A stretch of 53,490 bases of DNA, filler included, from Sphacelaria rigidula (taxonomy: Eukaryota), in the NCBI GenBank assembly GCA_964200075.2. It is 5 parts of 5 records of this genome, joined end to end, with 100 filler letters (N's around TTAATTAATTAA, not from the genome) between each part and the next. Parts side by side here need not be neighbours in the genome. Positions count along the whole stretch, not along the records: positions 21,439 to 32,056 come from CAXNAA020006187.1; 4 more parts are not named here. One strand, written 5' to 3'. Under the pieces are notes generated by a model. It was not told the DNA's origin. It made no database searches and saw only the letters and a list, made by a program, of their open reading frames with translations. Positions 2,700-51,135 of the stretch are shown here, in pieces; the first letter of the stretch is position 1, and each line of letters begins with the position of its first letter. A program made the translations under genes and the position numbers.

Positions 2700-4826
2700 A
2701 CTGCCGTTGAAGGGGATCATCCCGGCGCGGGAGTTTGTAGTGCAGAACTTCGCCTTCCCGCTAACAGCAGCACCGAGCGATGGATGTTTCAAGCAGCCCT
2801 GCATGTTGGCTCCGCTTGTATGTAACATTGACCATACCCGTCCGGGCGTGTGCGGCGCAGAACTCCGCCTTTCCACCACCGGCAGCACCGAACGATGGAA
2901 CTGTGGAACAGCCTCGCTTGCCGCAGCACTTGCGTACTACGCTGACCATACCCGCCCGGGCGTGTGTGTCGCAGAACTCCGCCCCCCCGCCAACGGCAGA
3001 AGCGAATATGGCTGTTTGGAGCATCCCTGCGTGCCGCACCGCTTGCTGATAACATCGACCATACCCGCCCGAGCGTGTGTAGCGCAGAACCCCGCCTTCC
3101 CGCCAACGGCGGCACCGAACGATGGCCGTTCGGAGCATCCCTGCGTGCCGCACCGCTTGCTTATGACATCGATCATACCCGCCCGGGAGTGTGCGGCGCA
3201 GAACTCCGCCTTCCCGCCAACGGCAGCACCAAACGATGGAGCTGTGGAGCAGCCCTGCGTCCCGCACCGCTTGCTGATAACATCGACCATACCCACTCGG
3301 GCGTGTGCGACGCAGAACTCCGCCTTCCCGCCAACGGCAGCACCGAACGATGGAACTGTGGTGCAGCCCTGCTTGCTGCACCACTTCCTCTTTGCAGCGA
3401 CCATGCCCGCCCGGGCGTGTGCGGCGCAGAACTTCGCCTTCCCGCCACAGGTGGCACCGAGCGATGGAATTGTGATGCAGCCCTGCTTGCTGCACCACTT
3501 CCTCTTTACAGCGACCATGCCCGCCCGAGCGTGTGTAGCGCAGAACTTCGCCTTCCCGCCACCGGCAGCACCGAACGACGGATGTTTTAAGCAGCCCTGC
3601 TTACCGCACCGCTTGTATAAAATATTGACCATGCCCGCCCGGGCGTGTGTGGAGCAGAACTCCACCTTCTCGCCAACGGCAGCACCGAACGATGGAGTGG
3701 TGGAGCAGCCCTGCTTGCTGCACCACTTCCTCTTCACGTCGACCATGCCCGCCCAAGCGTGTGTAGCGCACAACTCCGCCTCCCCACCACTGGCGGCACC
3801 GAACGATGCATGTTTCAAGCAGCCCTGGTTACTGCATCACTTCCTGTTTACACTCATCATACCCGCTCGGGCGTGTGCGGCGCAGAACCCCGCCTTAACG
3901 GCACAGGTGGAACCGAACGATGCGTGTTTCAAGCAGCCCTGCTTGCTGCACCGTTTCCTCTTTACAGAGACCATTCTCACCGGAGCGTGTGTAGCGCAGA
4001 ACTCCGCCTTCCCGCCAACGGCAGCACCGAACGATGGAACTGTGGAGCAGCCCTGCTTGCTGCACCACTTCCTCTTTACACTCATCATACCCGCTCGGGC
4101 GTGTGCGGCGCAGAACTCCGCCTTCCCGCCACCGGCAGCACCGAACGACGGAATTGTGGTGCAGCCCTGCTTGCTGCACCACTTCCTCTTTACAGCGACC
4201 ACACCCGCCCGGGCGTGTGCGGCGCAGAACTCCGCCTTCCCGCCAACGGCAGCACCAAACGACGGAACTGTGGTGCAGCCCTGCTTGCTGCACCACTTCC
4301 TCTTTACAGCGACCATACCCGCCCGGGCGTGTGCGGCGCAGAACTTCGCCTTCCCGCCAACGGCAGCACCGAACGACGGAATTGTGATGCAGCCCTGCTT
4401 GCTGCACCACTTCCTCTTTACAGCGACCATACCCGCCGAGCGTGTGTAGCGCAGAACTTCGCCTTCCCGCCACCGGCAGGCACCGAACGATGGATGTTTC
4501 AAGCAGCCCTGCTCGCCGCACCACTTGTATAAAACATTGACCATGCCCGCCCGGGCGTGTGCGGCGCAGAACTCCGCCTTCCCGCCAACGGCAGCACCGA
4601 ACGATGGAATTGTGGAGCAGCCCTAAATGCCACAACGCTTGCTTCTTACATTCACTATGCCCGTCCGGGTGTGTGTGGCGAAGGATTCCGCCCTTCTGCT
4701 ATCCACTACGCCATATGATGCACTTGTGGCGCCCGTGCGGGTACGTTCAATGGGCATACTCTGCGCGACTGCAATCAAAAAGGAGCCAAGGTCGCGGGCG
4801 TCTCGCTGCTCGTGCTTCACCCGCAC
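2700..4826 (-). pseudogene. EsV-1-7 domain repeat protein (about 18 tandem 114-bp / 38-aa Cys/His repeats), disrupted
   Basis: Repeat consensus KRKWCSKQGCTTxPSFGAAVGGKAEFCAAHARAGMV matches the EsV-1-7 motif (C-x4-C...PSFG...FC-x2-H...GMV). In-frame stops at 4623-4625 (TAG) and 3837-3839 (TGA), a compensating indel pair near 4436/4479, and a frameshift near 3007. No introns. Confidence 0.9.
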
Positions 4827-10620: not shown

Positions 10621-10720
10621 NNNNNNNNNNNNNNNNNNNNNNNNNNNNNNNNNNNNNNNNNNNNTTAATTAATTAANNNNNNNNNNNNNNNNNNNNNNNN
10701 NNNNNNNNNNNNNNNNNNNN
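10621..10720. other. Artificial contig linker N44-TTAATTAATTAA-N44
   Basis: Seen directly; the 12-mer places stops in all six frames. Confidence 0.98.
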
Positions 10721-15945: not shown

Positions 15946-16061
15946 GCCCAGGTGATTGAAAGCAAGCCTGGTCCGGCGAAAACCCGACGTGCTCCGTCCC
16001 GGCTTTGTAGGGATGCGAGGTCAATGGTCTCATGACTATGGCATGCATGATCATGAGTACA
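15946..16061 (+). mobile_element. 5'-truncated retroposon copy (CATGCATGATCATGAGTACA family) with 11-bp TSD
   Basis: CCCCGGTACAC at 15935-15945 and 16062-16072. Homologous to copies at 21439-21620, 26914-26938 and 35785-35850. Confidence 0.8.
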
Positions 16062-16959
16062 CCCCGGTACACACCTCGCACTTTGGTATCGTAAATTGGA
16101 TCAGCACTCTGACGAGATAAAAATGTTTTCTACTCACGCCCTTGTATTTTTAACGCCAGAAATCACATACTTTCAGAAGAAAAAAAATGAATTCGCCGTG
16201 AAATCGAATCCATATTCTTTCGATCTAATGGTCTTTGTACCTCGTGAAAATGCACGGCACACAAAAGCGTGCCGTTTTACATCGCATCCGTAAATGCCAT
16301 CGTTTTGTTCCACAATTTATCTCCCCAGCCTACCATGAGGTGACTCGATGGTAGTTACTCGCCTATCCCTGCTGATTGGTCCCTTTTTGAAATGTGTTTT
16401 CTATCGACACTCATATTCCCACCTCCTGATTGCTTGTCAACAGGCCCGTACGATACGTAGCATTGTCTATCCGGTAATAGTACACATATGTATGAAGTAT
16501 ATGGGAGTATTTCGCTTCATACCTACTATGTTGTCTGGATAGTCTGTGGGTCGGGTCGAAACTGCGCCACACGAAGTGCCCGACCTTAAAAGTAAGCTCA
16601 AGAAAGAACCCTCTTGACGGATACCTTGTTTAACAGAAAAGCACACTATGGTAATAGCACGTGGAAGATAGGCACATTGCATTTTATTGAACTACTGATT
16701 GCGTCTGGATACTACACACGAGCACGGCCGAAAAGACAACGACGATCTCGGTAAAACGTGTAACCTTTGCGTCGACTCTCAGTGACATGAACACATATCA
16801 TTCTAGTGCACGTGCAATCTTTTCTTTTACGAAACATGCTGCCCTTGTAACACACACTTTTCGATTCGTGTTTTTGGTGGGTGTCGGGCCACCCTGCGTT
16901 GATCTAGAGAGCACGCTTGCCGTGTCCTACCACTACACGATATGCTAATGCCGGAAAGC

Positions 16960-21338: not shown

Positions 21339-21438
21339 NNNNNNNNNNNNNNNNNNNNNNNNNNNNNNNNNNNNNNNNNNNNTTAATTAATTAANNNNNN
21401 NNNNNNNNNNNNNNNNNNNNNNNNNNNNNNNNNNNNNN
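21339..21438. other. Artificial contig linker
   Basis: N44-TTAATTAATTAA-N44. Confidence 0.98.
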
Positions 21439-21620
21439 CATCAGACCATTGACCTCGCATCCCTACAAAGCCGGGACGGAGCACGCCGGGTTTCCGCCGG
21501 ACCAGGCGGCTCGGGGGGGGGGGGACTCATGATCATGCATGTCATTGCCATAAGACCATTGACCTCGCATCCCTACGAAGCCGGTACGGAGCACGCCGGA
21601 TTTTCGTCGGACCAGGCTCG
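21439..21620 (-). mobile_element. Two adjacent copies of the CATGCATGATCATGAG retroposon family separated by a G-run
   Basis: GACCATTGACCTCGCATCCCTAC(A/G)AAGCCGG occurs twice and is the reverse complement of 15966-16060. Confidence 0.75.
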
Positions 21621-21889
21621 CACTTAACCACCAAGCGCGATGCGCCGTGGTGTGTTGGGCGAGTCACATGAAGGGTGAGTTGCGTCCTGCCAGATTGTTT
21701 GGCCCGAAGCCTATTGATTATCTTGCATTTGGATGACAGCCTCCAATGCGTTGCTTCATTGTCTGGTATCGCCACCTCCGGAGACAGCCACCGCTTTTAC
21801 ACTGCCTAATGGGTATCTCACCAGCGGGGAGCGGGGACTCAGTACGGCTCTCACAACTCTCCATGAAGTACATTCTTCGGAAGATTCCA

Positions 21890-22289
21890 CACCCTGGACA
21901 ATACAATATGTTCCCAATATATATTAGTCTATCATATTGGAATACTGCGATATATTGCCGGCGTAATATATAGTGGATCCCGTGGACTGCACACGTATTG
22001 CGCACCCAATATATATTGGTGTCGCGGGACTGCAAACGTATTGCCCACCCAATATATTTTGGTACCGTGGAATTGTACACATATTATCCCATCAATATAT
22101 ATTGAGGCGGTGTGGGCGAAGACATATTGCATGATCAATATATATATATTGGGGTCGTATTGGTGAGAACATATTGACCGTTCAATAGATAGTGGGTCCG
22201 CGTGGGTGCCAGTGTATTGGTCGGTCAATATATATTGGGCCCGTAAGGGTGCGAATATATGTATATATATATATTGCCCGGTCAGGGCG
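21890..22289 (+). repeat. Motif/spacer array 1: (Y)RTATTG-N6-CAATATATATTG-N17-18, period 43 bp
   Basis: Palindrome copies at 21964, 22007, 22050, 22093, 22136, 22183 and 22226, plus 21915. Bounded by CACCCTGGACAATA and TATTGCCCGGTCAGGGCG. Confidence 0.88.
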
Positions 22290-22316
22290 TCAGTACAAGT
22301 ATATACTATACATCGG

Positions 22317-23411
22317 GGTAGTTTGTATTGTACCATCTTTTATGGCAGTCACCGATCTCGAAATTTCCGAACATCGGGGGGAAATCATCGGGGAACGTAT
22401 TTTCGTGGGCCCCGATTTCGACCGAATCGGGGGAGAAAAAATCGTGGTGTAACGATTTCCTCCAATATTTTGCGGAACATCGGGGGGAAGAGCAATGCTA
22501 CGGTAGGGGTATACTTTTTTCGCGAAATACCGGCTAGTTCAGGGGCTCCTAACGATTATAGATACACAAGAATATGGGTCAGGGCATCCCCGTTCGCAAA
22601 TTCATTCGGGATATCCCCAGCACATTGGAGTAGTAATCCTGCCGCACGTTTGAATATTTTCATAAGTGGTGTTCTGCATGAGATCAAGGGCTCTTACCAA
22701 TCCTAACCTCAGAAAATATTTGTGCACCCCTATCGTAGCATCACTCGGAAGGTGAGGTACCCCCAATTTCGAGGAGGTAACGCACGTACACTGGCGTACA
22801 ATGGTAGGATTTTGAGGCGTGTGATATTTTTGCGATAGCAGCAAAAGACAGTCTCGTGATAGCGCAGGGTGTGCCTGCTCGCGACAGCTGCTGAAGCAAC
22901 TTCGCAAGAGGTCTGACTAGCGGATAAGCGCTAACGCCGTACGGCGGCCTTGGTGATATCTTATGCTGCAATGCCCCCGCCATGTGGATCACCATGACGA
23001 ACGGTACTGTACCATGATAGTCTGTTGTCGCCGTACTTGCAGGGTGATACATGGCACTGAACTACTGAACTTTTCTCGCGTACTGTTTGTTCATTATTCT
23101 CGCAATCAATGCCGACTGTGGCATCATGTATCACCACGCGTCATTGTCATGTACTGTGATGATGGAGTGCCCTAGACCGTATTACCCTAGGGTACCATCG
23201 GACGACACCGTACTCGAAGGATTATTCACAACCTACCTACTCTTCGGCTTCAAGAGTACGCTCGCGAGACAGACAGTAGCGCTCTCATGCAGAAAGAGAC
23301 TGTACGGAACTATTTCACAAATCTGTGATACCGTGAAACGGTGACCCCGATTTTGAGTTCGCGAATTTGAGGTTCGTTGCCATAAAAGGTTATTACAACA
23401 TATCACCTACC
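22317..23411. mobile_element. Diverged long-TIR non-autonomous DNA transposon
   Basis: 22317-22390 is an imperfect inverted copy of 23345-23411 (shared TGCCATAAAAG; GGGTAG/CTACCC ends). 22490-22520 is inverted at 22715-22746. Repeated ATCGGGG subterminal motifs. No TSD seen. Confidence 0.55.
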
Positions 23412-23657
23412 CAATATAAATTGGGTGGGGGTGTTGATGTCGGGTATATCTTTCACCGAACCATAGTATTCAAGTAATATACTCTACCCCGTCCTGAAAG
23501 TCATGCCGTCCAACGAATCTCTCATTCACTGTAATGCAACAAGTACATCATTCAATATTTGTCTTGGCGAGCAGGATATTTACAAGAGATCCATTTCGAA
23601 TCAGTCCGAGAAGAAAAACGTAGGCGAGAGTATTGCGTCGTCCCTTGGGGATACCTC

Positions 23658-23882
23658 GGAGTAGTTTTTCGAAGAAAAGTGATCTGATTAATTCGTCACC
23701 TGACCCTTTGGCTGCGAGGTTACGTTGGTGGATGAATCGGCATCACTTTTTCTTGAAACAATTCCGGAATATTTCGGAGTAATGCTTTGAGGAAAAGTGA
23801 TCCAAATCATTAGTAGCCTGCTCCTTTGGCTGGGAGATGTTTACTCTGGCTAATGAATCGGCATCACTCTTGCTTGAAACAA
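23658..23882 (+). repeat. Diverged tandem duplication, 2 x ~120 bp
   Basis: GAAAAGTGATC...CCTTTGGCTG...ATGAATCGGCATCACT...TTGAAACAA occurs twice. Confidence 0.75.
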
Positions 23883-24033
23883 AACCACGAACGTCGGGGG
23901 TATTTCATACTGAAAGTTCCGGTATTGTTTCCTGTAAATTACTTTTTGAATATACCGGGAGTCTCAAGTTTGATATGCCTCTGTTGTGTACGAGCTAGTT
24001 ACCTCTCGGGGTATGTACTATTTTGTGGCAGTT

Positions 24034-24690
24034 AAGTGCAAAAAGGGTGAATGGCTGCCAGCTACCCACGGAAGAATATTCGTCTGTGGCTCTCAGCTGT
24101 CCACGGGAAAACATGTATTTGTGGATCTCTATCCCTCTACAGACCACCCGCCCACCACCCCCTTCTCTCCTCCGCATAACGAAGGAGCAAGGCGACTGTT
24201 TGCATACAAAGAAGACATACTGATCAATTTGTCATAAAAAGTAGAAAATGGACGCATTTGTTTCGTAAAGCCATGCAATCGGCCGACCGCCAGTGGCGAG
24301 TACTGAATGGTGGTGACGAGGTCAGACGATGGGTGCAGTTGTGGGACCTCGCAGGGGTCGACGAACACCTGTGCCGTCTTGCCGCATCGATGGGTTGCCA
24401 CAACAACCCGTGTACCGGAGGGTGTCAAGACGGCAATCGCCAACATCGATCTTCTGCAGGGAAAACGGCTCTGCAGAGTCCCGCCAACCTCAAAGACCAT
24501 GCGATATTTCAAGTATGGTGTACGCTTTGAAAAGGTCCAGACGCCATGGATGCCGGAGCCCGTGCGGATAGGGAAAAGCTTGCATGAAAGGAAGCCACAG
24601 AAGTTCTCGTCCGTGGCCACGGAAAATTGACGAAAGAGTTTGATATATCTATTGGCCGGAAAATATTATAACAGACGAGGCGACCGAGTA
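24034..24690 (+). pseudogene. Decayed ORF, possibly a MULE-type transposase C-terminal/SWIM remnant
   Basis: One frame runs ~220 codons with three internal stops. It contains CSCGTSQGSTNTCAVLPHRW, which loosely resembles a SWIM finger plus the RW motif. Confidence 0.25.
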
Positions 24691-24848
24691 TAAATGCTTT
24701 CTGATACCTATCTCGCAAGCGGTGCGGTGTCGCCCATACTCTTCACAGTACGTAAGATATCTTGGCTGAACTATACGACGGCAGAAAACGTGGGTCGATA
24801 TATATGCCCCTTTTAGTACCCCTCTGGTCACTGGTGCTGTGTTGATTA

Positions 24849-25793
24849 TACCCTGAACAATACAACGTTTTACTATGATATCAATACTTTATATTGAGGA
24901 CAGCGCGAATATTGGCCTTTCAATATGTATTACGTTAAGATGCCCTCGGAGACATTGAAGTGGCAATATATATTCCTCGTGCCATTATCGCAAAGTAATG
25001 CATGGCAATATATATTGGACACGTTTTTGCTCCGGAAACACAACATTCAATATATATTGTGCATGCCGGCGGTGTATATATTCAAGTGTGAATGTATATT
25101 GAGATGAAGCGATGCATAACATTTTGTTGTCAAAATATATATTGAGCAAAAAACATGTAAGGGTATTGTTTTCCCAAAATGTATTGCACCCGCTCATCGC
25201 ATAGCTATTGTGCAGCCGATATATATATATTGAACACGCTCGCGGAGGACTATATTGAGCGCTTTCGGCATCTGGTGATACACCTTTCAATAGCGCCCGC
25301 GAACATGAAACTGCCCACCTTACTAATTTCTACACACTTTCCAACATACATATTGAATCACCGGTATATATTGCTACACCAATATGCATTGTGATCGTCG
25401 GTTCCCTTGTGTATTGTTCGCCCAATATATATTGGACGCATTGACGCACGACATACTGGGGCGGCAATATATATTTTGGCGCTTCAGGTGTTAAGTATAT
25501 TGAATCGTCAATATATATTGACCTCGTGTGGCAGCCAATATAGTACTCGACAAATATATATAATGGTGCCTTGCCGCACCTACATATTACTCGGCCAATA
25601 TATATTGAGGTGGCGCCTGTCGTGATGTATTGTTCGGTCGATATGTATTTCACATCGCGAGCCTTGACATATTGATGACACAATATATATCGACTTGTCT
25701 CTCCTGCCATCATTTTGCTCGCCCAATATATATTGACCACCCGACGCGTCGACATATTGAGCGAGCAGTATATATTACATATTGCCCCGGGTG
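24849..25793 (+). repeat. Motif/spacer array 2 (blocks of 8 and 10 units), period mostly 42-43 bp
   Basis: Palindromes at 24921, 24964, 25006, 25048, 25090, 25133, 25175, 25217 and at 25380, 25423, 25465, 25509, 25552, 25596, 25639, 25681, 25724, 25766. Bounded by TACCCTGAACAATA and TATTGCCCCGGGTG. Confidence 0.88.
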
Positions 25794-26913
25794 TGGAAGA
25801 TTCAGTACTGGCTACTACTACTCGCATATACCTACATATGCTGTTATGATCATATCCTATACTCTGTAGCTTTATTGCATTGGTGAAAAAAAATGTATGG
25901 TGTACGTGAGAGTCTTTTTTCTTGACTTGGGCCGTTTATTACGGTCGTTTAGCGGGGGGGGCAATAGGGCGTACTTACTTGTTTATCTGTCCTCGTCGTT
26001 TGACCATTGACCACGCACCCTTCTCGAGACGGAGCACCCTTTTTTCTTGTGATAGAGATGCCTCCAATATTTGGACGCTCACTGTGTTTCTTCCATACAC
26101 TGTGCAAAGTTATATATATGCTGTTCCGTTCCTGATCCGCCGTCAGTGGTCACCACCTATCTCGTAGTGCAGCGATCGCTCTCCCGCTTGTGTCCAATCT
26201 ATCAAACGGTTTCGTGCCACCTTCGTTACTTCCCACATATTATGCTGAAGCGTTCTGGGGGGGGGGGAATTGGTGACGGTCGTTTCATATTTGGGGTCTG
26301 CGATCCAGTTTTCTGCCCTAGAACAGGCAATATCGCCGTCACTTGTCTGGAACGGTTTGCATCACCTTACTGTAAGTAGTCTAGCCCACTTTTCCGATCC
26401 GCTTGGCTCCGAGGTTTTCAGAATGGCCTCCGAACAAACGTCCAGCTGAACATGACAAAATGCGATGCTGTGTCATTTTCTCCATGTGACTTTTGCGGTG
26501 TCTTGACACGTTAGATGATAATACCTGCAGACACCACATGTTTTCCTCCAGTCGTATTTTCATCCAGAGGCCCTGCTCGGAACTTCGCAGCCGGGCGAAT
26601 CTGAAGAGTGGGCTAGGATCCTCTCGACGGTGTGATGCAAACTAAAGTGTCCAAGACGCGTGGGGTCATCCTATGATGAGGGGGGGGAGGTATTTTGGGC
26701 CACTTCTTGCACGAAATTCCACCTCAAATCGTTATTGAAAGCAGCAACGGTTGTTCGAACGAGCTTGTTATAGATGAATAACGCTCATCCATGCTTGACA
26801 CCGTTTTGAAGCAAACTTAAGCGCACCGCGAGTGTAGCAAGTCGTCTAACACACATCTGAGCCTTTTGTTTCGTGCAGTAAAATCCCCGCCCCCCCCCCC
26901 CCCTCCCGCTATC

Positions 26914-26938
26914 TATGGCATGCATGATCATGAGTACA
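26914..26938 (+). mobile_element. 25-bp 3'-end-only retroposon insertion with 13-bp TSD
   Basis: TATGGCATGCATGATCATGAGTACA flanked by CCCTCCCGCTATC at 26901-26913 and 26939-26951. Confidence 0.85.
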
Positions 26939-29370
26939 CCCTCCCGCTATCGTAGAAATACTCTGTGATTGCGATATTTTCTCTCTTTGGGGATCAAAAT
27001 CCGTGCCAAATGTCCCAAGGGTGCACAAAACGACCCTCGAAAATATTCCAAACGACAGGAATGGCCTTGGGCACACATTTCTCCACGGGCATGTAGTTTT
27101 TTCACGCAGTGTTGGTGCGCGGCACGAAAAAAACTCGTTGGTTCGTGACCAATATTTTCTGTTTATTCGCCGATATCTGTGTCAGGTGCAGTCACTCTGC
27201 CAAAATTCGTACAAACTGACTTCACCACTCGGGGACGCATTCCGCGATACGATCACCGTGACATCATGTCGAAACCCGTCAAATGTCATGCCGTGCGGGG
27301 ATGTTGAAAGTACAGATACAACGGTGGAGTGCAGCAGTAAAGTGTCTGAGGAGAGGTGCAGAAGAAATAGAAACGTCGTAGGAACTATACATATGCAGTC
27401 ACATGAAGTAGATGAGAAACCAAAGGGTTACAGCGCTACGTACGAGACTTTACCTCATGAACGTAGAATCGGGTAATTCAGAAAACGATATATGCTGTTG
27501 ATAAAACACACATCAACAACACAGCAGCAGGCGGCGTATATCGTACAGAGAACAAGCGAACTACTGGCAATGACAGTCGCGAGTAAGGTGGTTTTCCAGA
27601 CACACCCAGCTTCAGCGAGGTGCATGTATTCCCTCACTATTTTGCTGGTCATCCGACAATGTGTAGGTGTTGTGGCGTAGCGCTCACATTAAAACATTCC
27701 CGTCATCATATTGTACAATCACATCTCGAGAAAAGAGATTAAGCCCGGATATGACAGCCGATCATTGAGGATGGAGATTTTCATTGAGGGTGAAAACCCG
27801 ACAAAACCAATATTCGTGTGTCCACACCTATTCTCAAGTACTAAATATCATACCAACCTGGATCCCAATAACTAAAATTTGGGGGTCGTGGGTGAAAGCC
27901 TCATCCTCGGGAATTCCAGTGATCCGTTCAAAATTTCGGGTATCGGAATTCACGTTTGTATGGCGTGTAGTATAGTTGCTATTCGCTACCAGTGGGTGAA
28001 GGAAAGCAGCCATGCTCCGACGCAATGGTGTGGATACGATGATTCGAATATTCCGTGTCCTCCTCAATGACAAACTTCATCCTCAACTTTGATATAGTCC
28101 ACATTCGCTCCTTACGACAATTCCTTACTCATGGTGTATTGAACGATTCCCAACAAAACTCCAGAATAAAACCCAGCCCATGAATTTGAGCCACAAGTGC
28201 GTGTGGACCCCATCGCCGACAACCTATACACAGGAGGAGTAGGTAACTCCTCTATCCGCTGTGAAAGTATTTGCTCATGACTATTTTCAACCATTAGACA
28301 CAGGAGGACTACGCAGCCGCTCTAGAATAGTATACACACCAAGCAACTCATTTCTACTCAATTGTCGAAACCATTAAATACATTTTGTACGAGCATTAAA
28401 ACGCCATCCGGTGTAAGTCTAAACTTCAATCCCACCTCTTTGGTGTTAAACCAACCGTGTGGATTGGTGCTAGCAGCCCCTTGACACCCCCTCGAAAAGC
28501 CCTTTTCCTCGCGAACCCCACCAAGTTCGTCACCTGGGTAGCCGTCATGACCTGAAGAACGCGCTCCTTTCCGAAGCCGTTCTTTGTTAAACAGACCTGG
28601 TCGTTCCCCCCCCCCCCCGCGCGGCAGGTGTCGCTCACTTGTTGATGAAGTCGTATCCCTCCTCTCCAGGGCCGCCAAAGGTCTCCGAACAAGGGTGGTA
28701 TGTCGAAAGCTGCACCCATCAAAGGACACGTGTCCGTGATGAGCTTAGTGTCGACGCGTTCGCACCTCGGAAGTTTGGGCTGTGGATCCATCACGAATCA
28801 CTCCACCTCCCCCCAAGTGAACTTTGTCAATGATCAGACGACTAAGGCAAGCAACACATGAGAACGCCCCCCAAGTGAACTTTGCTTTCGGATTCATATG
28901 GGGATCACATGGCGAAGTATGCCCTCGCTACGGTAATCTGGGGATGACGCGTCCCAGACACCTTCTCGTCTGACGACGATGCCCATGCTTTGGTCTCTGT
29001 CCAGCGTGGAAGATTTTCCACTGCTCAGCTTGTGTTTACCGGACAGGCCGACGACGAAGGGCCGAGTGAAGGCACACTGAACTGTTTCATGCATGTTGGG
29101 GTCGCCGACGGAATCCCCCTCCCCTCTTTGGATGCAGCGCTACCCGGAACTACTGGCGCTCGATCATGCGGTTCGCTTTGTTTGATAAACGAAAGCTCGG
29201 GTATTCACTGTGCTTACCAAGCACACGCTTTCGTGTGGAACGTCCTCACTCCACATTGCAGGTTATCTAGATGCGTAATTTTTACGTGTCGAAGACCGAA
29301 CCACCCCAAAAATACTGCCCTCGCCGCCCTTTGCCGCTTTGCCTTGTAAACTGCCCTTTTGCTTCCCAAG

Positions 29371-30618
29371 GTGCCATCGCCGTGCATACCGCTTCAATTG
29401 TAGCAGAGGGAGCAACAAACTTCAACAGTAACAGAGCCAAGAACGGAGCGGGGGGTGGGATATACTGCACTGTTGCAGTGGCTTCTTTCGAAGGCTCCAC
29501 TTTCACGGAAAACGAGGCCGTCTGGGGGGGAGGTCAGTGGTAGCTTTTGTCGGGGCCGATTTTTGAGCTCATGCCTTCTCTCTTCGGTCGCAGCGATACA
29601 TCCTTTGCGGTGAACCTAGTTCGAAGAATGTTCTTCAACTATTACGTATCTCACTTCAAGAGCTGCGCTGCCTCGCCCATCATTGTTACGTGTAAAGGCC
29701 AGGCCGGAAGCTAAACCCACTGATGTGAAGATGTCACAGCTGTTCCTTTGTGGTTGTAAGCATGCACTGGGCATTCTGCTGTCAAATGCGTAGGAGCAGC
29801 ACCAAGGACCGCGTTCCACGCCATTAAAGGTCCGAAATATGGAACTTGCCCCGTGGGAAGTGAATTGGCTCATGTCTTTTCGGGCTTCGCCAGATAACCA
29901 TGAACCATATCATCGTCTTTTCCCTCTTGCTCCCTTCCTTCCCCCTCACGTGTGGATCAATGACGTCCGAGATCAGGCCTGGCCCTTTTTTCCTCTGGTT
30001 CTGAGTGGGACATGTATTCACCTAACGACACCGGGCCTACCAATACGGCCATGTGTATCTTTGAACGGAACAAGGCTGTGGACGGGGGTGCCATGTACAG
30101 CGCCGCCGGGTATGACATGATCACAAACTCTTCGTGTGAGGAAATTTTGGCAGGTATAGCCAGAGCGTTGTGCCTAGTGATTCCAACTAGAAATCGTTTC
30201 AACTGTATACCGTGGTATTCGATTTTCGAGGGTGCTCAGCAGAGATCAAAACACATGAAATCGTAAAGACAATTATATGTCAAACAAGACGGCGAAAAAA
30301 GCTTGATTCCCTTCCAACAGTGAATGCCGAGCACAGCTGCCATCTTCCGCATGACGCCCCGCATTATGTCATTACTTTTCCTTGTTTCTTCAACTTCTTC
30401 GTTTCACGGCAGAGGGGTCCGGCGGGGCGTACCTGCATTCCGGAGTTCTGGTTGAACTTGGCGGCTCTAAATTCGTCGGAAATAGAGCCGGTGATGCTGG
30501 TCTGGCAGTGTCGAGTCTCGGAATGGTGAAAGATATTTCCAACACGTCCTTCGAGTCGAACACCAACTATTGCCCTTCTGGGGAGTACGGCTACGACATT
30601 GATAAATTCGAAGACGAG
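29371..30618 (+). pseudogene. Exons of a brown-algal polymorphic outer membrane protein/adhesin-like (GGA-FxxN repeat) gene; fragmentary
   Basis: Exons 29371-29532 (FNSNRAKNGAGGGIY, FTENEAVWGG), ~30012-30153 (FERNKAVDGGAMYSAAG) and 30413-30618 (GGAYLHSG, FVGNRAGDAGLAV, FESNTNYCPSGEYGYD), with GT donors. The middle exon lacks a clear acceptor and flanking exons were not found. Confidence 0.7.
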
Positions 30619-32056
30619 GTGACCAAACTACAGTATTGCCGAGTAGCTTGCCAGTGGATAACTACGCTTCACGTTTCGGTTGGAAATGGTACCGAGTGTT
30701 GAGCCTTGCATGGATGTAGCATTTTAGTTCGTCAATTTCGCTGATGTCCGCACAGTTGGTTTGCCCGAAGATTGCTCCCGTACGCAGCTGTGATGGTGTC
30801 GCTCATTTCATTGCGGGCTGACTTTATGTGGGAAGACCTGTTCAACAACAGTAAATACTACACTCCGACGGTTTCCTCGCCTGTTGCCCTGGTCACCCTG
30901 CCCTCGTGATGGTCAAGTGGAAGCACCGATAGCAGCAGTGCATGCCTTACAAACCATACGAGCTGGTTGCCGTCATACCTCTGAATCCTCCCCGAAAATT
31001 GCACGATATATTGGGGGTAAGTTCGTGTTCCCCGAGGGAGTGTCGCCTCGACATGGAACGGAGCACTGTCACACTGTAATGCGTGAGAGGGCCGCATTGT
31101 GGTTCGAAACACCTCAGGATCGACGTTTTTCGGAGTCAATGGCCGGCCAGTTCCTGCAGGGACCACGCCCCTGACCTTAACCCCCACACTAACCCTAGCC
31201 ATGGGGGTGTTCAAACTTCGATCCGATCCTTTGAGCACGCGGCCCCCTCACGGACTACAACACGCTGACACAGAAATCCCCACCCTTACGTTCTCTGGTT
31301 ACTTTTCAACCCAGAATTGAACCCATCTTTCCCCCGGACGACCGTATCAAATGGGTTATGAAATGGACTGGTAAATATCGCCATGAAAGCTGGAACTGGC
31401 GACGAGGGCACAATTTATCGAGCTCATCCGAGTGATAGCTAATACCAATTTGAGTTCCTTGATCGTATAACGAGAAAGTTTGCCCGTCGCTGCTTGATCG
31501 CTGACATTCCAGGTGTTATCTACTTGTTCAGTCCGGTCTGCTCTGTTGATACGTCGTGTCTCTGCTATTTTCTCTCTTCCGACCACAGCGTGCAGATCGA
31601 CGGTTGAACCAATTGAGAGAATACAAACACAAATTGAGAAGCGTGACTTATATACGATGGAACACTTGTTGCGGAAGTGCCGAACGCCAGATCTTAAGCG
31701 TCAATTGAGCGGTGGGAAGCGTTCTGAATAGAACGCAGCATTTGCTCAGCACACCTCGAAGTGATGGAGCGGATATACACCAAGGTTTCTTGTTTCATTG
31801 CACGACATCTGGAAACAGAAATGATGAGCGACAACTCACAACCACAAGACAAGCTACAGTATGGCATGCTATCGAACTTCATGCAAGCGTGTCCAGTGCG
31901 GACGTGAAGATATTCGTGCTTTTATCCCCACGTGTCACCAGGCTGGTCTTCCTTGTTCCCATCACCCACCCCTGGTGGACACTCTTTTTTTGCTACATAC
32001 CACCACTGGATTTGTTTTGAATCGCTCATCACTTCAGACGATGGAGCCACTCCTTT

Positions 32057-32156
32057 NNNNNNNNNNNNNNNNNNNNNNNNNNNNNNNNNNNNNNNNNNNN
32101 TTAATTAATTAANNNNNNNNNNNNNNNNNNNNNNNNNNNNNNNNNNNNNNNNNNNN
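32057..32156. other. Artificial contig linker
   Basis: N44-TTAATTAATTAA-N44. Confidence 0.98.
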
Positions 32157-35770: not shown

Positions 35771-35784
35771 TCGAGCGGAGGGGG

Positions 35785-35850
35785 TGCACTCATGATCATG
35801 CATGCCATAGTCATAAGACCCTTGATCTCGCATCCCTACAATGCCGGGAC
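35785..35850 (-). mobile_element. 66-bp retroposon copy with 13-bp TSD
   Basis: CGAGCGGAGGGGG at 35772-35784 and 35851-35863 flanks TGCACTCATGATCATGCATGCCATAG...GCCGGGAC. Confidence 0.85.
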
Positions 35851-37459
35851 CGAGCGGAGGGGGGGGGGGCATGTGTAGTTATATCCTGGATAATTGGTCC
35901 TGATGGTCCATTAAACAGGACACATACCACATGACACTCTCTCGTCATCCTTCGGTGCGGCGAGTTAATGAAAGATAACTCGAGATTATCACAACAAGCG
36001 ACTGGATGTACCGGCGGTGCATACCTTACGAGCATATTGACGGCGATCGATTGCGCTGCGGGTTCGGCGTGTAGATCGCCGTAAGCCTTGCTCTTCAGGT
36101 ACGTCAGCGAAATACATTTCGATACCGGGGTCCGACGTCTGGAACGCCCAGGCAATTGCTTTCATTGCTTCCGGTGTAGTGGCGAAGCAGGCCTTTCGCC
36201 AGTGCCGCATCGTCACTAGCGACAGAGAATTCAAACCCAGCTGTTTTCGGTGACGAGGGGACACCAACGGGCCGTGGAGAAAAACATATAGCAGATGCGG
36301 TGAAATCGAGTCGGCCATTTTAGCGTCCGTGGATGTGCAAAATGATCCATAGTACCGTACACAACTTCTCCCGACTGAACAGAATATCGGTACCGGCTCT
36401 CACATCGAATCGCCGCGCCCCCGCTCCAGAGCGGCAACTTCACTGCGACCGTCGTGCGTGCTGTATTACATACGTGATCGAGGTCTGTTGTGTTCGCTGC
36501 ACACTGGGTTGTTTCTCGGCGCATGAGCGGGTGGGAGATGCAGTACACGCGTCGCAAACCCTCCGGCAACTAGTTTACAACAATACAAACGGACTTGACT
36601 CGGTGCCTTGATGTATCATAAATGACCCGCGGCGCACATGTGATACAATACGAATTTAAACTTCACCCAACGCCCACTACCGTCCCCGTATAATGCAGAC
36701 CCGGTTTTGTAGTACCCCGTCTTTCACATTCCATTACTCACGTTCGTGAACTCCTTTGCTATTTGCCCCCCGTAACGTCATCACTCCCCGTCCTCTCCTG
36801 GACCGACGTTATGATCCCAACGTACATGTAAAGCTTGTCGTACGTGTTGCGGGGAGACAGAGTCTCGCCGACATCGTTTAAAGCTGTTCGAAAGCAGGCA
36901 GGCAGAAGCAACGCCTGCTTCTTCACTGTTGTGGTATGCAGGCTGCAGGCGGCGGTGCAGTGGATTGTGTAACGGAGAGGTGGGGGGTGGGGGAGGGGGA
37001 TAGAGCGAGGGACAGTGAGAACATCCTAATATTGCGGTTAGTTGAAGGTCACGATCGGTACATGTTACCCACAAAGCCACCTGTACTCGTAATTCGACCA
37101 CGTATCTGGGTCATATCACTCTCGCATGAGTACTGATAAGCCATGTTCTTCGATAACACCTAACTTTGTAGCTAGTACAACGGTATCTTTCTTTCGAGCT
37201 CTACTTTCGGTACAATGGTGACCAACTTGCCGCGTGGCAGGTGCCATACCGCTGAAACAATCCCACCAGCCAGGCAAGTGAAAATACCTAAATATTCCGG
37301 TATTTGTCGACATGTGTCCCATTCTCTGATGACGCTTCGGGTGCACATGGCCACTTGCACAAAGGATCACAGGATATGTGCCGCAACATTCTGACGGTCA
37401 GGGCACGTTGAGTTGTGGTCTCCTAAAGATTGATCCAAACGCGGAACAACGCCAACTTC

Positions 37460-42774: not shown

Positions 42775-42874
42775 NNNNNNNNNNNNNNNNNNNNNNNNNN
42801 NNNNNNNNNNNNNNNNNNTTAATTAATTAANNNNNNNNNNNNNNNNNNNNNNNNNNNNNNNNNNNNNNNNNNNN
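42775..42874. other. Artificial contig linker
   Basis: N44-TTAATTAATTAA-N44. Confidence 0.98.
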
Positions 42875-50300: not shown

Positions 50301-51135
50301 GAGGAGTCGGTATGGACGTCCAGGCGTGCTCAGGCGTGGCACGAGGCGCAAGACTTGGTGGCGCATGCTGTCGCTTTGTCATATCCCAAGCAGGGGCATG
50401 AGGTGCTCATGTTTCCAGACGCATCGGATCTACGCTGGAGAAGTCTTCTTGCGCAGGTGCCGGAGGATGAGCTGGGTGGTATATTGGCGGTGGAAGACAT
50501 GAGCCATGAGCCGATGGGGGCTTTTAGCGGAATTTTTCGTGGAGCGCAAGTTCGGTGGGCTGTTGTTGGTTCCGGATCGAAGCTCATGTGACAGATTTTG
50601 TGAGGAAATGTTTGCAGTGTGTGGACTTCGAAGCGGGTGAGACGGTCCCGCGGCCACTAGGGGAGACAATGCATGGCACGCGGTCCGGTGAGGTGATGCA
50701 TTTTGATTATCTGTATACATTAGCGAAAGCGGTTCGGTGGGCGAGAGCGACCTGGACGAAGGCGACGGGTATGAGTACATATTTGTAATGATCGATGATC
50801 TGTGCAATTTCGCGTTGTTGGAGCCCACCGAGTCTTGTACAGCTGCAGCCATGGTGCAGCATCTGTTGGCGTGGTGCAAGGTGTTGGATCCGCTGAAGGT
50901 TTTGGTTAGTGGAACCGCATCGCATTTTAAGAACCGTGTGATGCGAGCACTGGAGAAGGCGCTGAAGCTGGAAAGGAGGTTCGCGGTTCCCAACTCGCCG
51001 TGGTTAAATGGTACGTGTGAAAGGATGATGCGAGAGGTTGTCTGTACTTCGAAGGCCATACTGCAAGAAGAGAGGCGCGACGTTCGTGGCTGGGTGGGAC
51101 CGGTGCCTGCCGTGCAGTGAGCATTGAACACGGTT
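47368..51135 (+). mobile_element. Degenerate Ty3/Gypsy internal region (gag-PR-RT-RH-IN)
   Basis: gag from 47471; protease VLDSGAG (~48789-48809); RT YRLVSDYHAVN, IDMLQGY, TRVPQGVLNA, WVDD (49919-49930); RNase H MFPDASD; integrase RKCLQC, HFDYL, VMIDD, SPWLNGTCERMMR. Several stops and frameshifts; no LTRs. Confidence 0.93.

What the first reader, a model, noticed from the sequence alone, without database searches (positions are those of the whole stretch)
24849..25793. CRISPR-like architecture in a eukaryote: 18 phased conserved motifs with largely unique spacers
Seen: unit (Y)RTATTG-N6-CAATATATATTG-N17-18 at a period of mostly 42-43 bp. The motif and spacing are conserved while the 6-nt loop and 17-18-nt spacer differ from unit to unit. 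An ordinary satellite decays uniformly, so this pattern is unusual. Inference: the period equals four helical turns, suggesting phased protein-binding sites. The ATATTG-N6-CAATAT core has the geometry of a tyrosine-recombinase site or a small hairpin with a variable loop. Possible explanations are transposase-binding arrays of an undescribed DNA transposon, a viral-type replication origin, or a cassette-acquiring/processed-RNA array. No cas or recombinase gene is visible.
Basis: partly seen in the sequence, partly recalled or inferred. Interest (0 to 1): 0.85.

Follow-up and report, generated by a model that had tools for sequence, protein, structure and literature searches.

The report
Transposon end arrays of binding sites
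The CRISPR-looking array is the repeat-filled right end of an ordinary gene-less "cut-and-paste" jumping gene that is present in many copies in this alga-like genome, and its conserved motifs are most likely docking sites for the enzyme that moves it.

Summary
Eighteen phased units (period 42.9 +/- 1.1 bp) carry a conserved TATTG-N6-CAATATATATTG motif, while loops and spacers are near random.

The array is not free-standing. A second array of 9 units lies at 21915-22276 in the same orientation. Both sit just inside 16-bp terminal inverted repeats (CACACCC...CAATA, 14 of 16 matching) flanked by an exact 8-bp direct repeat, GAAGATTC. No such pairing appeared in 5000 shuffles.

So 21888-25795 is a 3.9-kb DNA transposon. 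It has no recognisable gene: 16 of 16 internal ORFs have no Pfam family above cut-off.

Contigs of four public runs show a multi-copy family:
- About 100 contig variants cover each array position listed.
- Summed depth is about 1e5 at 25714 and about 55 at 25826, just outside the right end.
- Paralogues align through the spacers at about 80-82 % identity.
- The family majority restores TATTG at two places where this copy is mutated.

The spacers are therefore inherited, not acquired. The best reading is subterminal transposase-binding sites in helical phase. The superfamily is open: hAT, KDZ/Zisupton or MULE, judged by the 8-bp duplication. The CRISPR-like, recombinase-site and hairpin readings are not supported. 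This is a known kind of element; interest is low to moderate.

The parts
21880..21887 (.). Left copy of the 8-bp target-site duplication GAAGATTC
   Evidence: Exact 8 of 8 direct repeat with 25796-25803, immediately outside the inverted repeats (I7, 37). 0 of 5000 shuffles of the two 120-bp zones give an exact 8-bp duplication next to an inverted repeat of at least 14 of 16.
21888..21903 (+). Left terminal inverted repeat CACACCCTGGACAATA
   Evidence: 14 of 16 complementary to 25780-25795. The half-site CAATA starts at nucleotide 12 from the terminus, as at the right end.
21915..22276 (+). Left subterminal array: 9 units, period mostly 43 bp, same polarity as the right array
   Evidence: Part of it is seen by TRF as period 43, 2.3 copies (21965-22064). 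Spacers keep a consensus here: majority fraction 0.66 against a null of 0.47, for the 7 central units analysed of the 9. 16 exact ATATTG/CAATAT hexamers in 403 bp.
22277..24848 (.). Internal non-coding region with nested or unrelated repeats; no transposase
   Evidence: Longest stop-to-stop ORFs are 178-179 aa. 16 of 16 scanned ORFs have no Pfam family above cut-off. Summed contig depth varies from about 1.9e3 to 1.4e6 between bins; a hyper-abundant repeat lies at about 22454-22860. An isolated degenerate unit lies at 23398-23431 (D1).
24849..25793 (+). Right subterminal array (the finding): 18 units in two blocks (anchors 24921-25221 and 25380-25766), period 42.9 +/- 1.1 bp
   Evidence: 30 exact half-site hexamers in 947 bp (31.7 per kb) against 0.56 per kb in the rest of the window.
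25780..25795 (-). Right terminal inverted repeat (reverse complement CACACCCGGGGCAATA)
   Evidence: (I7). In X1 the summed contig depth is about 1.06e5 at 25714 and 54.8 at 25826, so the family's right boundary lies between those two places (table 3).
25796..25803 (.). Right copy of the 8-bp target-site duplication GAAGATTC

Best explanation
The array is the right subterminal region of a 3.9-kb non-autonomous cut-and-paste DNA transposon (21888-25795). A shorter array of the same units forms the left subterminal region.

Shown:
- 16-bp terminal inverted repeats starting 5'-CACACCC.
- An exact 8-bp target-site duplication.
- Arrays directly inside both ends.
- No recognisable gene.
- A multi-copy family in the same genome whose copies share the spacers.
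- A conserved motif with decayed spacers.

Inferred: each unit offers three copies of one half-site, ATATTG. They are arranged as ATATTG-N6-CAATAT|ATATTG, that is, one inverted pair 6 bp apart followed by a zero-spacer palindrome. The half-site is recognised by the DNA-binding domain of a transposase encoded elsewhere by an autonomous relative.

The terminal inverted repeat carries the same half-site at nucleotides 12-16 from each end. That copy would position the catalytic domain at the CA terminus. The period of 42.9 bp (about 4 helical turns) puts all sites on one face of the helix. Many transposase subunits could then bind cooperatively, raise local occupancy and help pair the two ends. 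Cleavage and 8-bp staggered integration would follow.

Only copies that keep enough sites in phase are re-mobilised. Motif and spacing are therefore held by selection among copies, while loops and linkers drift. Units are also gained by local duplication; the left array is the younger-looking one.

The superfamily is not determined. An 8-bp duplication fits hAT, Zisupton/KDZ or a MULE such as Muta1.
For: Ends. TIR 14 of 16 plus an exact 8-bp TSD (I7); 0 of 5000 shuffles give such a pairing.

Two arrays. Both lie just inside the ends. The first half-site starts at nucleotide 12 from both termini.

Differential conservation. Majority fraction is 0.90 in the 12-mer and 0.76 in TATTG, against 0.41-0.42 in loop and spacer; the null is 0.39.

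Half-site density. 39.7 per kb (left) and 31.7 per kb (right), against 0.56 per kb in the rest of the window.

Family evidence from contigs of 4 of 4 laid runs:
- At the five listed array positions, 83-102 contigs in X1 carry the family's majority letter.
- Summed depth in the array bins is 3e4-1.1e5 in X1, against 341-709 in the low-copy flank bins.
- Paralogous contigs align over 25405-25784 (61 other letters and 15 gaps in 380), 25242-25608 (57 and 8 in 367) and 25223-25632 (57 and 19 in 410). This is impossible if only the roughly 40-47 % motif columns were shared.
- The majority letter restores TATTG at 25456 (C>T) and 25714 (T>A), where this copy is mutated.
- Joints 21917>24874, 22238>24536 and 22239>24505, seen in all 4 runs, are shorter family members with other internal parts, as in Ds-type derivatives.
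- One X1 contig enters the element at 21884 from a different flank (table 5c).

No gene. 16 of 16 internal ORFs have no Pfam family above cut-off.

Precedent. In Muta1, 9 subterminal 12-bp repeats separated by variable linkers increase transposase binding, cleavage and excision, and all left/right differences lie in the linkers (PMC5499845, passages read).
Against: - No transposase was found, so binding is inferred and not shown.
- Both arrays have the same polarity on the + strand, so the two ends are not mirror images beyond the 16-bp TIR. This is unlike foldback-type elements such as Muta1. The 12-mer is a palindrome, which softens the point.
- No empty-site joint across 21887>25796 appears among the 15 joints shown; 1294 more were not shown.
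- Depth of Logan contigs is not a copy number, by the tool's own warning. 4654 contigs in X1 fit two places of the stretch.
- The TIR start CACAC and the duplicated octamer GAAGATTC do not fit the hAT consensus forms I recall (YARNG; nTnnnnAn).
- The left family boundary is masked by an adjoining hyper-abundant repeat.
Confidence: 0.7

Rival explanations
1. Neutral internal minisatellite of a transposon. The 43-bp unit was amplified by slippage or unequal exchange inside a mobile element and has no role in transposition. The motif looks conserved only because AT-rich palindromes mutate more slowly or are renewed by microsatellite-like slippage.
For: A few spacers still resemble each other: 7 of 276 spacer pairs score at least 4, against a shuffle mean of 0.4 and a maximum of 3 in 300 shuffles. 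So the units do descend from duplications. The left array keeps a spacer consensus (0.66 against a null of 0.47). The core holds an (AT)n run that varies in length in R08 and L06. A 4-base length variant at 25219 is seen in 12-20 contigs per run (table 4).
Against: Uniform decay is not seen. The 12-mer stands at 0.90 while spacers are at the null. This includes the non-microsatellite letters C, A..T, G and the separate TATTG 6 bp upstream. The spacers are 55 % G+C with 41 CpG in 484 nt, so they have not been eroded towards A+T. The same half-site sits in both TIRs at nucleotide 12. The family majority restores the motif at 2 of the 5 listed array differences.
Confidence: 0.12
2. Binding platform for a protein other than the transposase (host silencing factor, chromatin or regulatory protein, or an accessory protein of the element), carried passively by the transposon.
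For: The phased, one-face geometry and sequence-specific conservation without covariation fit any dimeric DNA-binding protein. The arrays have the same polarity at both ends, which a transposase does not require.
Against: The half-site is also part of both terminal inverted repeats, at the same distance from the cut site. That links it to end recognition. No gene for such a protein is present in this copy.
Confidence: 0.08
3. Array of tyrosine-recombinase core sites or of single-strand hairpins with variable loops (recombination cassettes, or HUH/rolling-circle recognition hairpins).
For: ATATTG-N6-CAATAT has the arm-spacer-arm geometry of a recombinase core site. 86.3 % of 146 stem cells can pair.
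Against: Pairing is no better than when the 3' letters are shuffled among units: 85.2 +/- 0.9 %, with 93 of 500 shuffles as high. Only 1 of 146 cells has a change on both sides, and the covariation score is 0.128 against 0.111 +/- 0.015. The element has TIRs and an 8-bp duplication, the mark of DDE transposition and not of tyrosine recombinase or HUH elements (recalled). No recombinase domain was found in 16 of 16 internal ORFs.
Confidence: 0.03
4. Iteron array of a viral or plasmid-type replication origin from an integrated element.
For: Phased direct repeats with an AT-rich core resemble iterons (recalled). The window carries a gene with the EsV-1-7 motif (Pfam E 2.4e-85). The Ectocarpus TE paper says this domain is otherwise known mostly from giant viruses (PMC12477816, section 5 part 2).
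Against: The motif scan of 2.9 million viral contigs gave 36 stretches, each with one match and none with an array. There is no replication gene in the element. The EsV-1-7 gene lies in a different piece of the concatenated window. TIR plus TSD and hundreds of dispersed copies fit a transposon.
Confidence: 0.03
5. CRISPR-like adaptive or processed-RNA array.
For: Only the superficial repeat-spacer look.
Against: The spacers are shared by paralogous copies. The repeats are only 76-90 % conserved per column and include a variable 6-nt loop. The 43-bp period is shorter than any CRISPR repeat-plus-spacer unit I recall. Rfam gives 0 matches at E up to 1. The array sits between transposon ends.
Confidence: 0.005

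Closest known systems
Muta1 (Mutator-like element of Aedes aegypti) and its non-autonomous derivative Muta1NA1
   Same: It has 8- or 9-bp target duplications and a short terminal motif followed by many tandem subterminal repeats separated by variable linkers. All left/right differences lie in the linkers. Repeat numbers are unequal at the two ends (3 and 7 in Muta1NA1). More repeats give more transposase binding, cleavage and excision (PMC5499845, passages read).
   Different: Muta1 units are 12 bp with 3-4-bp linkers and form 145-bp inverted (foldback-type) ends. Here the conserved part is a 23-bp composite with a variable 6-nt inset, the linkers are 17-20 bp, the period is 43 bp, the arrays reach about 0.36 and 0.95 kb, and both have the same polarity. 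No MULE transposase was found here.
hAT elements with subterminal transposase-binding repeats (Ac/Ds of maize; Hermes; Tgf2)
   Same: They have 8-bp target duplications (PMC12730594 passage). They have short TIRs plus subterminal repeats, and heterogeneous non-autonomous derivatives (PMC3260210, abstract start in the listing). The Tgf2 zinc finger contributes to DNA binding (PMC4890040, title and abstract start in the listing). Binding of Ac transposase to AAACGG hexamers and of the Hermes octamer to subterminal repeats is recalled, not read here.
   Different: hAT subterminal motifs are short (5-6 bp), irregularly spaced and in both orientations (recalled). The TIR here starts CACAC, not the recalled YARNG. 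No hAT transposase or dimerisation domain is present.
Zisupton / KDZ transposons
   Same: Zisupton generates 8-bp duplications, and KDZ relatives have 5'-CA..TG-3' termini (PMC12730594 passages). In the brown alga Ectocarpus, KDZ has 6403 copies against 128 for hAT, with many non-autonomous forms (PMC12477816, Table 1 and section 5).
   Different: I saw no description of KDZ subterminal arrays in the passages read. No KDZ transposase is present here. It is not shown that the organism is Ectocarpus.
En/Spm (CACTA) subterminal TnpA-binding motifs
   Same: CAC termini (PMC12730594 passage). Many copies of a roughly 12-bp protein-binding motif fill several hundred bp inside each end, partly as inverted pairs (recalled).
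   Different: CACTA and its relatives make 2-5-bp duplications (PMC12730594 passage). Here the duplication is 8 bp.
CRISPR arrays
   Same: Alternation of a conserved element with dissimilar intervening sequence at a fixed period.
   Different: The host is eukaryotic. The repeats are imperfect, with an internal variable inset. The period is 43 bp. The same 'spacers' recur in about 100 contig variants of paralogous copies. The array lies between transposon ends. There are no cas genes in the 10.6-kb piece and no Rfam match.

Membership tests
Class II TIR (cut-and-paste) DNA transposon, non-autonomous | Terminal inverted repeats | tested here: met
   21888-21903 against 25780-25795, 14 of 16 complementary.
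Class II TIR (cut-and-paste) DNA transposon, non-autonomous | Target-site duplication directly outside the TIRs | tested here: met
   GAAGATTC, 8 of 8, at 21880-21887 and 25796-25803. 0 of 5000 shuffles give TSD plus TIR.
Class II TIR (cut-and-paste) DNA transposon, non-autonomous | Several genomic copies with the same ends in different flanks | tested here: inconclusive
   Multi-copy: 83-102 contigs per listed array position in X1. Depth falls from 1.06e5 at 25714 to 54.8 at 25826. One contig enters at 21884 from another flank. Individual copies and their duplications could not be read, because no genome is held.
Class II TIR (cut-and-paste) DNA transposon, non-autonomous | Absence of a transposase gene in the copy (non-autonomous) | tested here: met
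   16 of 16 internal ORFs of 72-179 aa have no Pfam family above cut-off. One sub-threshold DUF7298 hit: E 0.023, 14.8 bits against a cut-off of 27.
hAT superfamily | 8-bp target-site duplication | tested here: met
   'hAT usually generate 8 bp TSDs' (PMC12730594 passage).
hAT superfamily | TIR beginning YARNG and target consensus nTnnnnAn (both recalled, not from a call) | tested here: not met
   The TIR begins CACAC. The duplicated octamer GAAGATTC has A at position 2 and T at position 7.
hAT superfamily | hAT transposase (BED finger, DDE, C-terminal dimerisation domain) | not testable with these tools
   There is none in this copy. The autonomous partner cannot be sought without the genome.
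KDZ / Zisupton | 8-bp target-site duplication; CA..TG termini | tested here: met
   Literature passages.
KDZ / Zisupton | KDZ transposase | not testable with these tools
   No genome held.
Mutator-like elements | 9-11-bp duplication (recalled; 8 or 9 bp in Muta1) and long TIRs | tested here: inconclusive
   8 bp is at the lower edge (Muta1: 8 or 9 bp). The inverted similarity ends after 16 bp, because the arrays are in direct orientation.
CACTA / EnSpm | 2-5-bp (typically 3-bp) duplication | tested here: not met
   The 3 bp outside the TIRs are TTC and GAA, while the exact repeat is 8 bp. The TSD range is from the PMC12730594 passage.
CRISPR array | Near-identical repeats, spacers unique to the locus, prokaryotic or viral host with cas genes | tested here: not met
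   Repeat columns are 0.76-0.90 conserved with a variable inset. The spacers are shared by paralogous copies. The motif occurs only singly in viral contigs (36 of 36 stretches). No cas-like domain was found in the ORFs scanned.
Neutral minisatellite | Uniform decay of all unit columns | tested here: not met
   0.90 against 0.42, with a null of 0.39.
Structured-RNA / hairpin repeat | Compensatory changes in the stem | tested here: not met
   1 of 146 cells. The covariation score is reached by 72 of 500 shuffles. Rfam gives 0 matches.

The most novel reading that the evidence does not exclude
The arrays are the end-recognition platform of a brown-alga transposon lineage whose cis requirements are undescribed, for example non-autonomous KDZ/Zisupton elements or one of the many 'DNA/Unknown' families. 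About 27 tripartite half-site clusters are spaced exactly four helical turns apart and have the same polarity at both ends. They would nucleate a long one-faced transposase filament rather than the foldback or short-motif arrangements known from MULE, hAT and CACTA elements.
Probability: 0.2. Interest if true: 0.45.

Novelty: new member of a known kind. Interest (0 to 1): 0.25.

Why it matters
It removes a false lead: there is no CRISPR-like system in a eukaryote here. What remains is modestly useful. It is a clean natural example of selection keeping protein-binding sites and their helical phase while linkers randomise. It gives a precise candidate binding site (CAATAT|ATATTG, plus ATATTG 6 bp upstream). 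That site could be used to find and classify the autonomous partner and to annotate this abundant family in brown-alga genomes.

Tried and rejected
- Whole genome: none is held for this window. Copies, their duplications and an autonomous partner could not be collected.
- Earlier findings of this scan: nothing by place, sequence or relatives, and nothing relevant by words.
- Motif scan of viral contigs: 36 stretches, each with a single match and no array.
Of the 80 rows listed, 79 have one match; one (L100) has two overlapping matches on opposite strands. No array was found. These loci were not used further.
- Sequencing runs: no RNA holder is listed, so expression and small RNAs could not be examined.
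- Empty site: no joint across 21887>25796 is among the 15 joints shown; 1294 were not shown.
I scanned ORFs one by one instead.
- ESM Atlas on the 178-aa ORF 24129-24665(-): no usable hit, recognition 1787. I ran no further search on it.
- Rfam (E up to 1) and ARAGORN on 21439-27500: 0 and 0.
- blastn of the element and its flanks against the other four pieces: no second copy of the element in the window.
- Higher-order (2-unit) periodicity of the spacers: lag means are -3.7, -3.0, -2.6 and -3.9 for lags 1-4, with no clear signal.
- Literature: the motif string occurs in 0 held papers. The Ectocarpus TE paper's main text has 0 occurrences of 'subterminal' and 'MITE'. Its curated library is in supplements, which are closed, so the family may already be named there.
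Full report
**1. The window and the context**

The 53,490-base window is not one stretch. It is five pieces of about 10.6 kb joined by N44-TTAATTAATTAA-N44 spacers at 10621, 21339, 32057 and 42775. The finding lies in the third piece (21439-32056), and only that piece is real context.

No whole genome is held. The DNA looks eukaryotic and alga-like:
- Another piece carries a 114-bp tandem repeat. Its minus-strand ORF matches the Pfam EsV-1-7 cysteine-rich motif seven times (E 2.4e-85). The Ectocarpus TE paper describes this domain as expanded in brown algae and otherwise known mostly from giant viruses (PMC12477816, section 5 part 2).
- One of the public runs that holds the region is labelled 'algae metagenome'.

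I did not try to identify the organism further.

Yes.

- CAATATATATTG with up to 2 mismatches occurs 30 times in the window, against 1.35 expected; 0 of 100 shuffles reach 30.
- Seventeen of these lie in 24921-25777. Sixteen are in phase. Two more in-phase units have 3 mismatches.
- The period is 42.9 +/- 1.1 bp over 16 spacings.
- In an anchored alignment of the 18 units the majority-letter fraction is 0.90 in the 12-mer and 0.76 in the upstream TATTG. It is 0.41 in the 6-nt inset and 0.42 in the 17-nt linker. Random columns of this composition give 0.39 (95th percentile 0.50).

So the motif and its spacing are kept while everything between is close to random.

Corrections:
- The phase breaks once (159 bp between the anchors at 25221 and 25380), so there are two blocks of 8 and 10 units.
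- Degenerate units continue leftwards to about 24650 (families D8 and D13).
- Tandem Repeats Finder misses the array entirely.

**3. What surrounds it**

The same unit forms a second array of 9 units at 21915-22276. Part of it is regular enough for TRF (period 43).

Directly outside the two arrays lie inverted 16-mers: CACACCCTGGACAATA at 21888-21903 and its imperfect complement at 25780-25795 (14 of 16). Directly outside those lies an exact 8-bp direct repeat, GAAGATTC, at 21880-21887 and 25796-25803 (pair I7). In 5000 shuffles of the two 120-bp boundary zones, an exact 8-bp duplication next to an inverted repeat of at least 14 of 16 never arose.

This is the signature of a cut-and-paste DNA transposon, 21888-25795, 3908 bp long.

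The half-site of the array motif (CAATA) is part of both terminal repeats and starts at nucleotide 12 from each terminus. Exact ATATTG/CAATAT hexamers number 16 in the left 403 bp and 30 in the right 947 bp. That is 39.7 and 31.7 per kb, against 0.56 per kb in the rest of the window.

The 2.6 kb between the arrays has no ORF longer than 179 codons. None of the 16 ORFs scanned (72-179 aa) reaches any Pfam cut-off. The ESM Atlas gives no lead for the longest minus-strand ORF. The copy is non-autonomous.

**4. Evidence from other copies**

Five public runs from two studies hold the stretch. I laid the Logan contigs of four of them on 21439-27500 at 80 % likeness or more. The results agree across all four runs.

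a. *The array is multi-copy.* At the five listed array positions where most depth differs from the window (25071, 25456, 25493, 25581, 25714), 83-102 different contigs in X1 carry the majority letter. The other runs show 46-102.

b. *Depth.* Summed contig depth in the array bins is 3e4-1.1e5 in X1, against 341-709 in the low-copy flank bins. At single positions it is 1.06e5 at 25714 and 54.8 at 25826. So the family's right boundary lies between those places, where the terminal repeat ends (25795). The tool warns that such depth is not a copy number. I read it only as 'many copies, probably hundreds'.

c. *Paralogues align through the spacers.*
- 25405-25784: 61 other letters and 15 gaps in 380.
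- 25242-25608: 57 and 8 in 367.
- 25223-25632: 57 and 19 in 410.

That is about 80-82 % identity. Only 40-47 % of columns are motif, so this is possible only if the linkers are shared too (my inference). The 'spacers' are inherited parts of the family's sequence, not locus-specific acquisitions.

d. *The majority letter restores the motif.* Two of the five majority differences restore TATTG where the window's copy has TACTG (25456) and TTTTG (25714). The family's founder had the intact motif there.

e. *Shorter family members exist.* Joints 21917>24874 (skips 2956), 22238>24536 and 22239>24505, some with 33-35 other letters between, are present in all four runs. They are members with deleted or different internal parts, as expected of a heterogeneous non-autonomous family.

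f. *A different flank.* One X1 contig enters the element at 21884 from a different flank (table 5c). An X4 contig bridges the right end into this locus's flank (25738-26687, 2 differences).

No empty-site joint was among the 15 joints shown; 1294 were not shown.

**5. Tests of the alternatives**

*Hairpin or recombinase core.* On the 25-unit alignment (18 right-array units plus 7 of the 9 left-array units; L01 and L09 were left out), 86.3 % of the 146 cells of the stem TATTG/CAATA (extended by one pair) can pair. Shuffling the 3' letters among units gives 85.2 +/- 0.9 %, and 93 of 500 shuffles are as high. Only 1 of 146 cells has a change on both sides. The covariation score is 0.128, against 0.111 +/- 0.015, and is reached by 72 of 500 shuffles. 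Departures from the motif are one-sided. This fits sequence-specific recognition of each arm, not a selected structure.

*Processed RNA.* Rfam gives 0 matches at E up to 1, and there are no tRNAs.

*Viral origin.* The pattern occurs only singly in 36 of 36 viral stretches. It occurs singly in 79 of the 80 listed metagenome stretches; the 80th has two overlapping matches.

*Neutral minisatellite.* The units do share descent. Seven of 276 spacer pairs score at least 4, against a shuffle mean of 0.4 and a maximum of 3. These are mostly in the left array, whose spacers keep a consensus (0.66 against a null of 0.47, for the 7 central units). But decay is far from uniform in the right array. The spacers are 55 % G+C and still hold 41 CpG in 484 nt, so faster erosion of G+C-rich linkers does not explain the contrast.

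**6. How it most likely works**

*Shown:* the ends, the duplication, the two arrays, the multi-copy family, the differential conservation and the lack of a gene.

*Inferred:* each unit presents three copies of one half-site, arranged as ATATTG-N6-CAATAT|ATATTG. A transposase encoded elsewhere binds them, probably as dimers on the palindrome. The copy of the half-site at nucleotides 12-16 of each terminal repeat would place the catalytic domain at the CA terminus.

The period of 42.9 bp, about four helical turns, aligns all sites on one face. Many subunits could then bind cooperatively and help pair the two ends before excision and 8-bp staggered integration. Copies that lose sites or phase are mobilised less often. 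This keeps motif and spacing, but not linkers, among the copies that found new insertions.

The closest experimental precedent I read is Muta1 (PMC5499845, passages):
- 8- or 9-bp duplications.
- A terminal motif followed by nine 12-bp subterminal repeats with 3-4-bp linkers.
- All left/right differences in the linkers.
- Unequal repeat numbers at the two ends of a working derivative.
- Binding, cleavage and excision that rise with repeat number.

An unusual point here is that both arrays have the same polarity on the + strand. Beyond the 16-bp terminal repeat, the two ends are therefore not mirror images. The palindromic 12-mer is orientation-free, and only the extra upstream TATTG gives polarity. 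The two ends may simply be functionally unequal, as in several known elements (recalled).

**7. Which family?**

Membership as a non-autonomous TIR transposon is met on three features: ends, duplication and absence of a gene. The dispersed copies with the same ends are only partly shown.

The superfamily cannot be fixed without a transposase.
- An 8-bp duplication fits hAT ('usually 8 bp') and Zisupton ('generates 8 bp TSDs') (PMC12730594 passages). It also fits Muta1-like MULEs (8 or 9 bp).
- It does not fit CACTA and its relatives, which make 2-5 bp (same paper), despite the CAC terminus.
- The hAT terminal consensus YARNG and target consensus nTnnnnAn, both recalled, are not met (CACAC; GAAGATTC).
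- In Ectocarpus, the one brown alga with a curated TE census that I could read, KDZ has 6403 copies, hAT has 128, and 51 'DNA/Unknown' families have 9109 copies (PMC12477816, Table 1).

If this organism is similar, a KDZ-dependent or unclassified family is at least as likely as hAT.

That paper's main text has 0 occurrences of 'subterminal'. Its library is in supplements I could not open. The motif string occurs in none of the held papers. So I cannot say whether the family is already named.

**8. Verdict**

The CRISPR-like framing is wrong.

This is a new or at least unplaced member of a known kind of element. It is notable only for the length, regularity and same-sense polarity of its binding-site arrays.

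- Interest: 0.25.
- Most novel reading not excluded: the end-recognition platform of a brown-alga transposon lineage with undescribed cis requirements, such as KDZ. Probability about 0.2; interest if true about 0.45.

Noticed in passing
window 10621-10720, 21339-21438, 32057-32156, 42775-42874: The window is five pieces of about 10.6 kb joined by N44-TTAATTAATTAA-N44 spacers, so features in different pieces are not neighbours.
   Followed up: yes
window 21439-21700, 22454-22860, 25905-26107, 26717-27122; also 15951-16065 and 35777-35855: A hyper-abundant short repeat: summed contig depth is 4e5-8.6e6 in X1, about 1000 times that of the low-copy flanks. It forms a tandem pair at 21439-21507 / 21549-21617 (91 %). 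One copy sits inside the transposon's internal region. No tRNA or Rfam match, so it may be a MITE or SINE.
   Followed up: partly
window 21515-21545 and 26915-26945: A 31-nt inverted repeat (87 %). Contig joints link 21562 directly to 26913 (skips 5350; 2 contigs in X1, 1 in X5), and there are many opposite-strand joints 21439-21448 / 26913. The transposon and its immediate flanks may be nested inside a copy of another repeat.
   Followed up: no
window 2742-4624: A 114-bp tandem repeat, 16.5 copies, 81 % matches. Its minus-strand ORF (2937-3836) matches the Pfam EsV-1-7 cysteine-rich motif seven times (E 2.4e-85). This is a repeat-protein gene of the type expanded in brown algae.
   Followed up: partly
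window 23648-23761 and 23766-23882: A direct repeat of about 117 bp (75 %) inside the transposon's internal region (D10/D16, 45). One isolated degenerate array unit lies at 23398-23431 (D1).
   Followed up: no
window 49871-50401: An ORF with a weak reverse-transcriptase match (RVT_1, E 9.1e-4, 19.4 bits, below the 29.6 cut-off). It is probably a decayed retrotransposon in another piece.
   Followed up: no
window 26381-26430 and 26567-26616: A 50-nt inverted repeat (76 %) with 136 nt between the arms, in the right flank. Depth there is moderately raised (I1).
   Followed up: no
window 29271-29543: An ORF with glycine-rich GGGIY / WGGG motifs. By eye it resembles beta-helix repeat proteins and is possibly an exon of the neighbouring gene. 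It was not searched.
   Followed up: no
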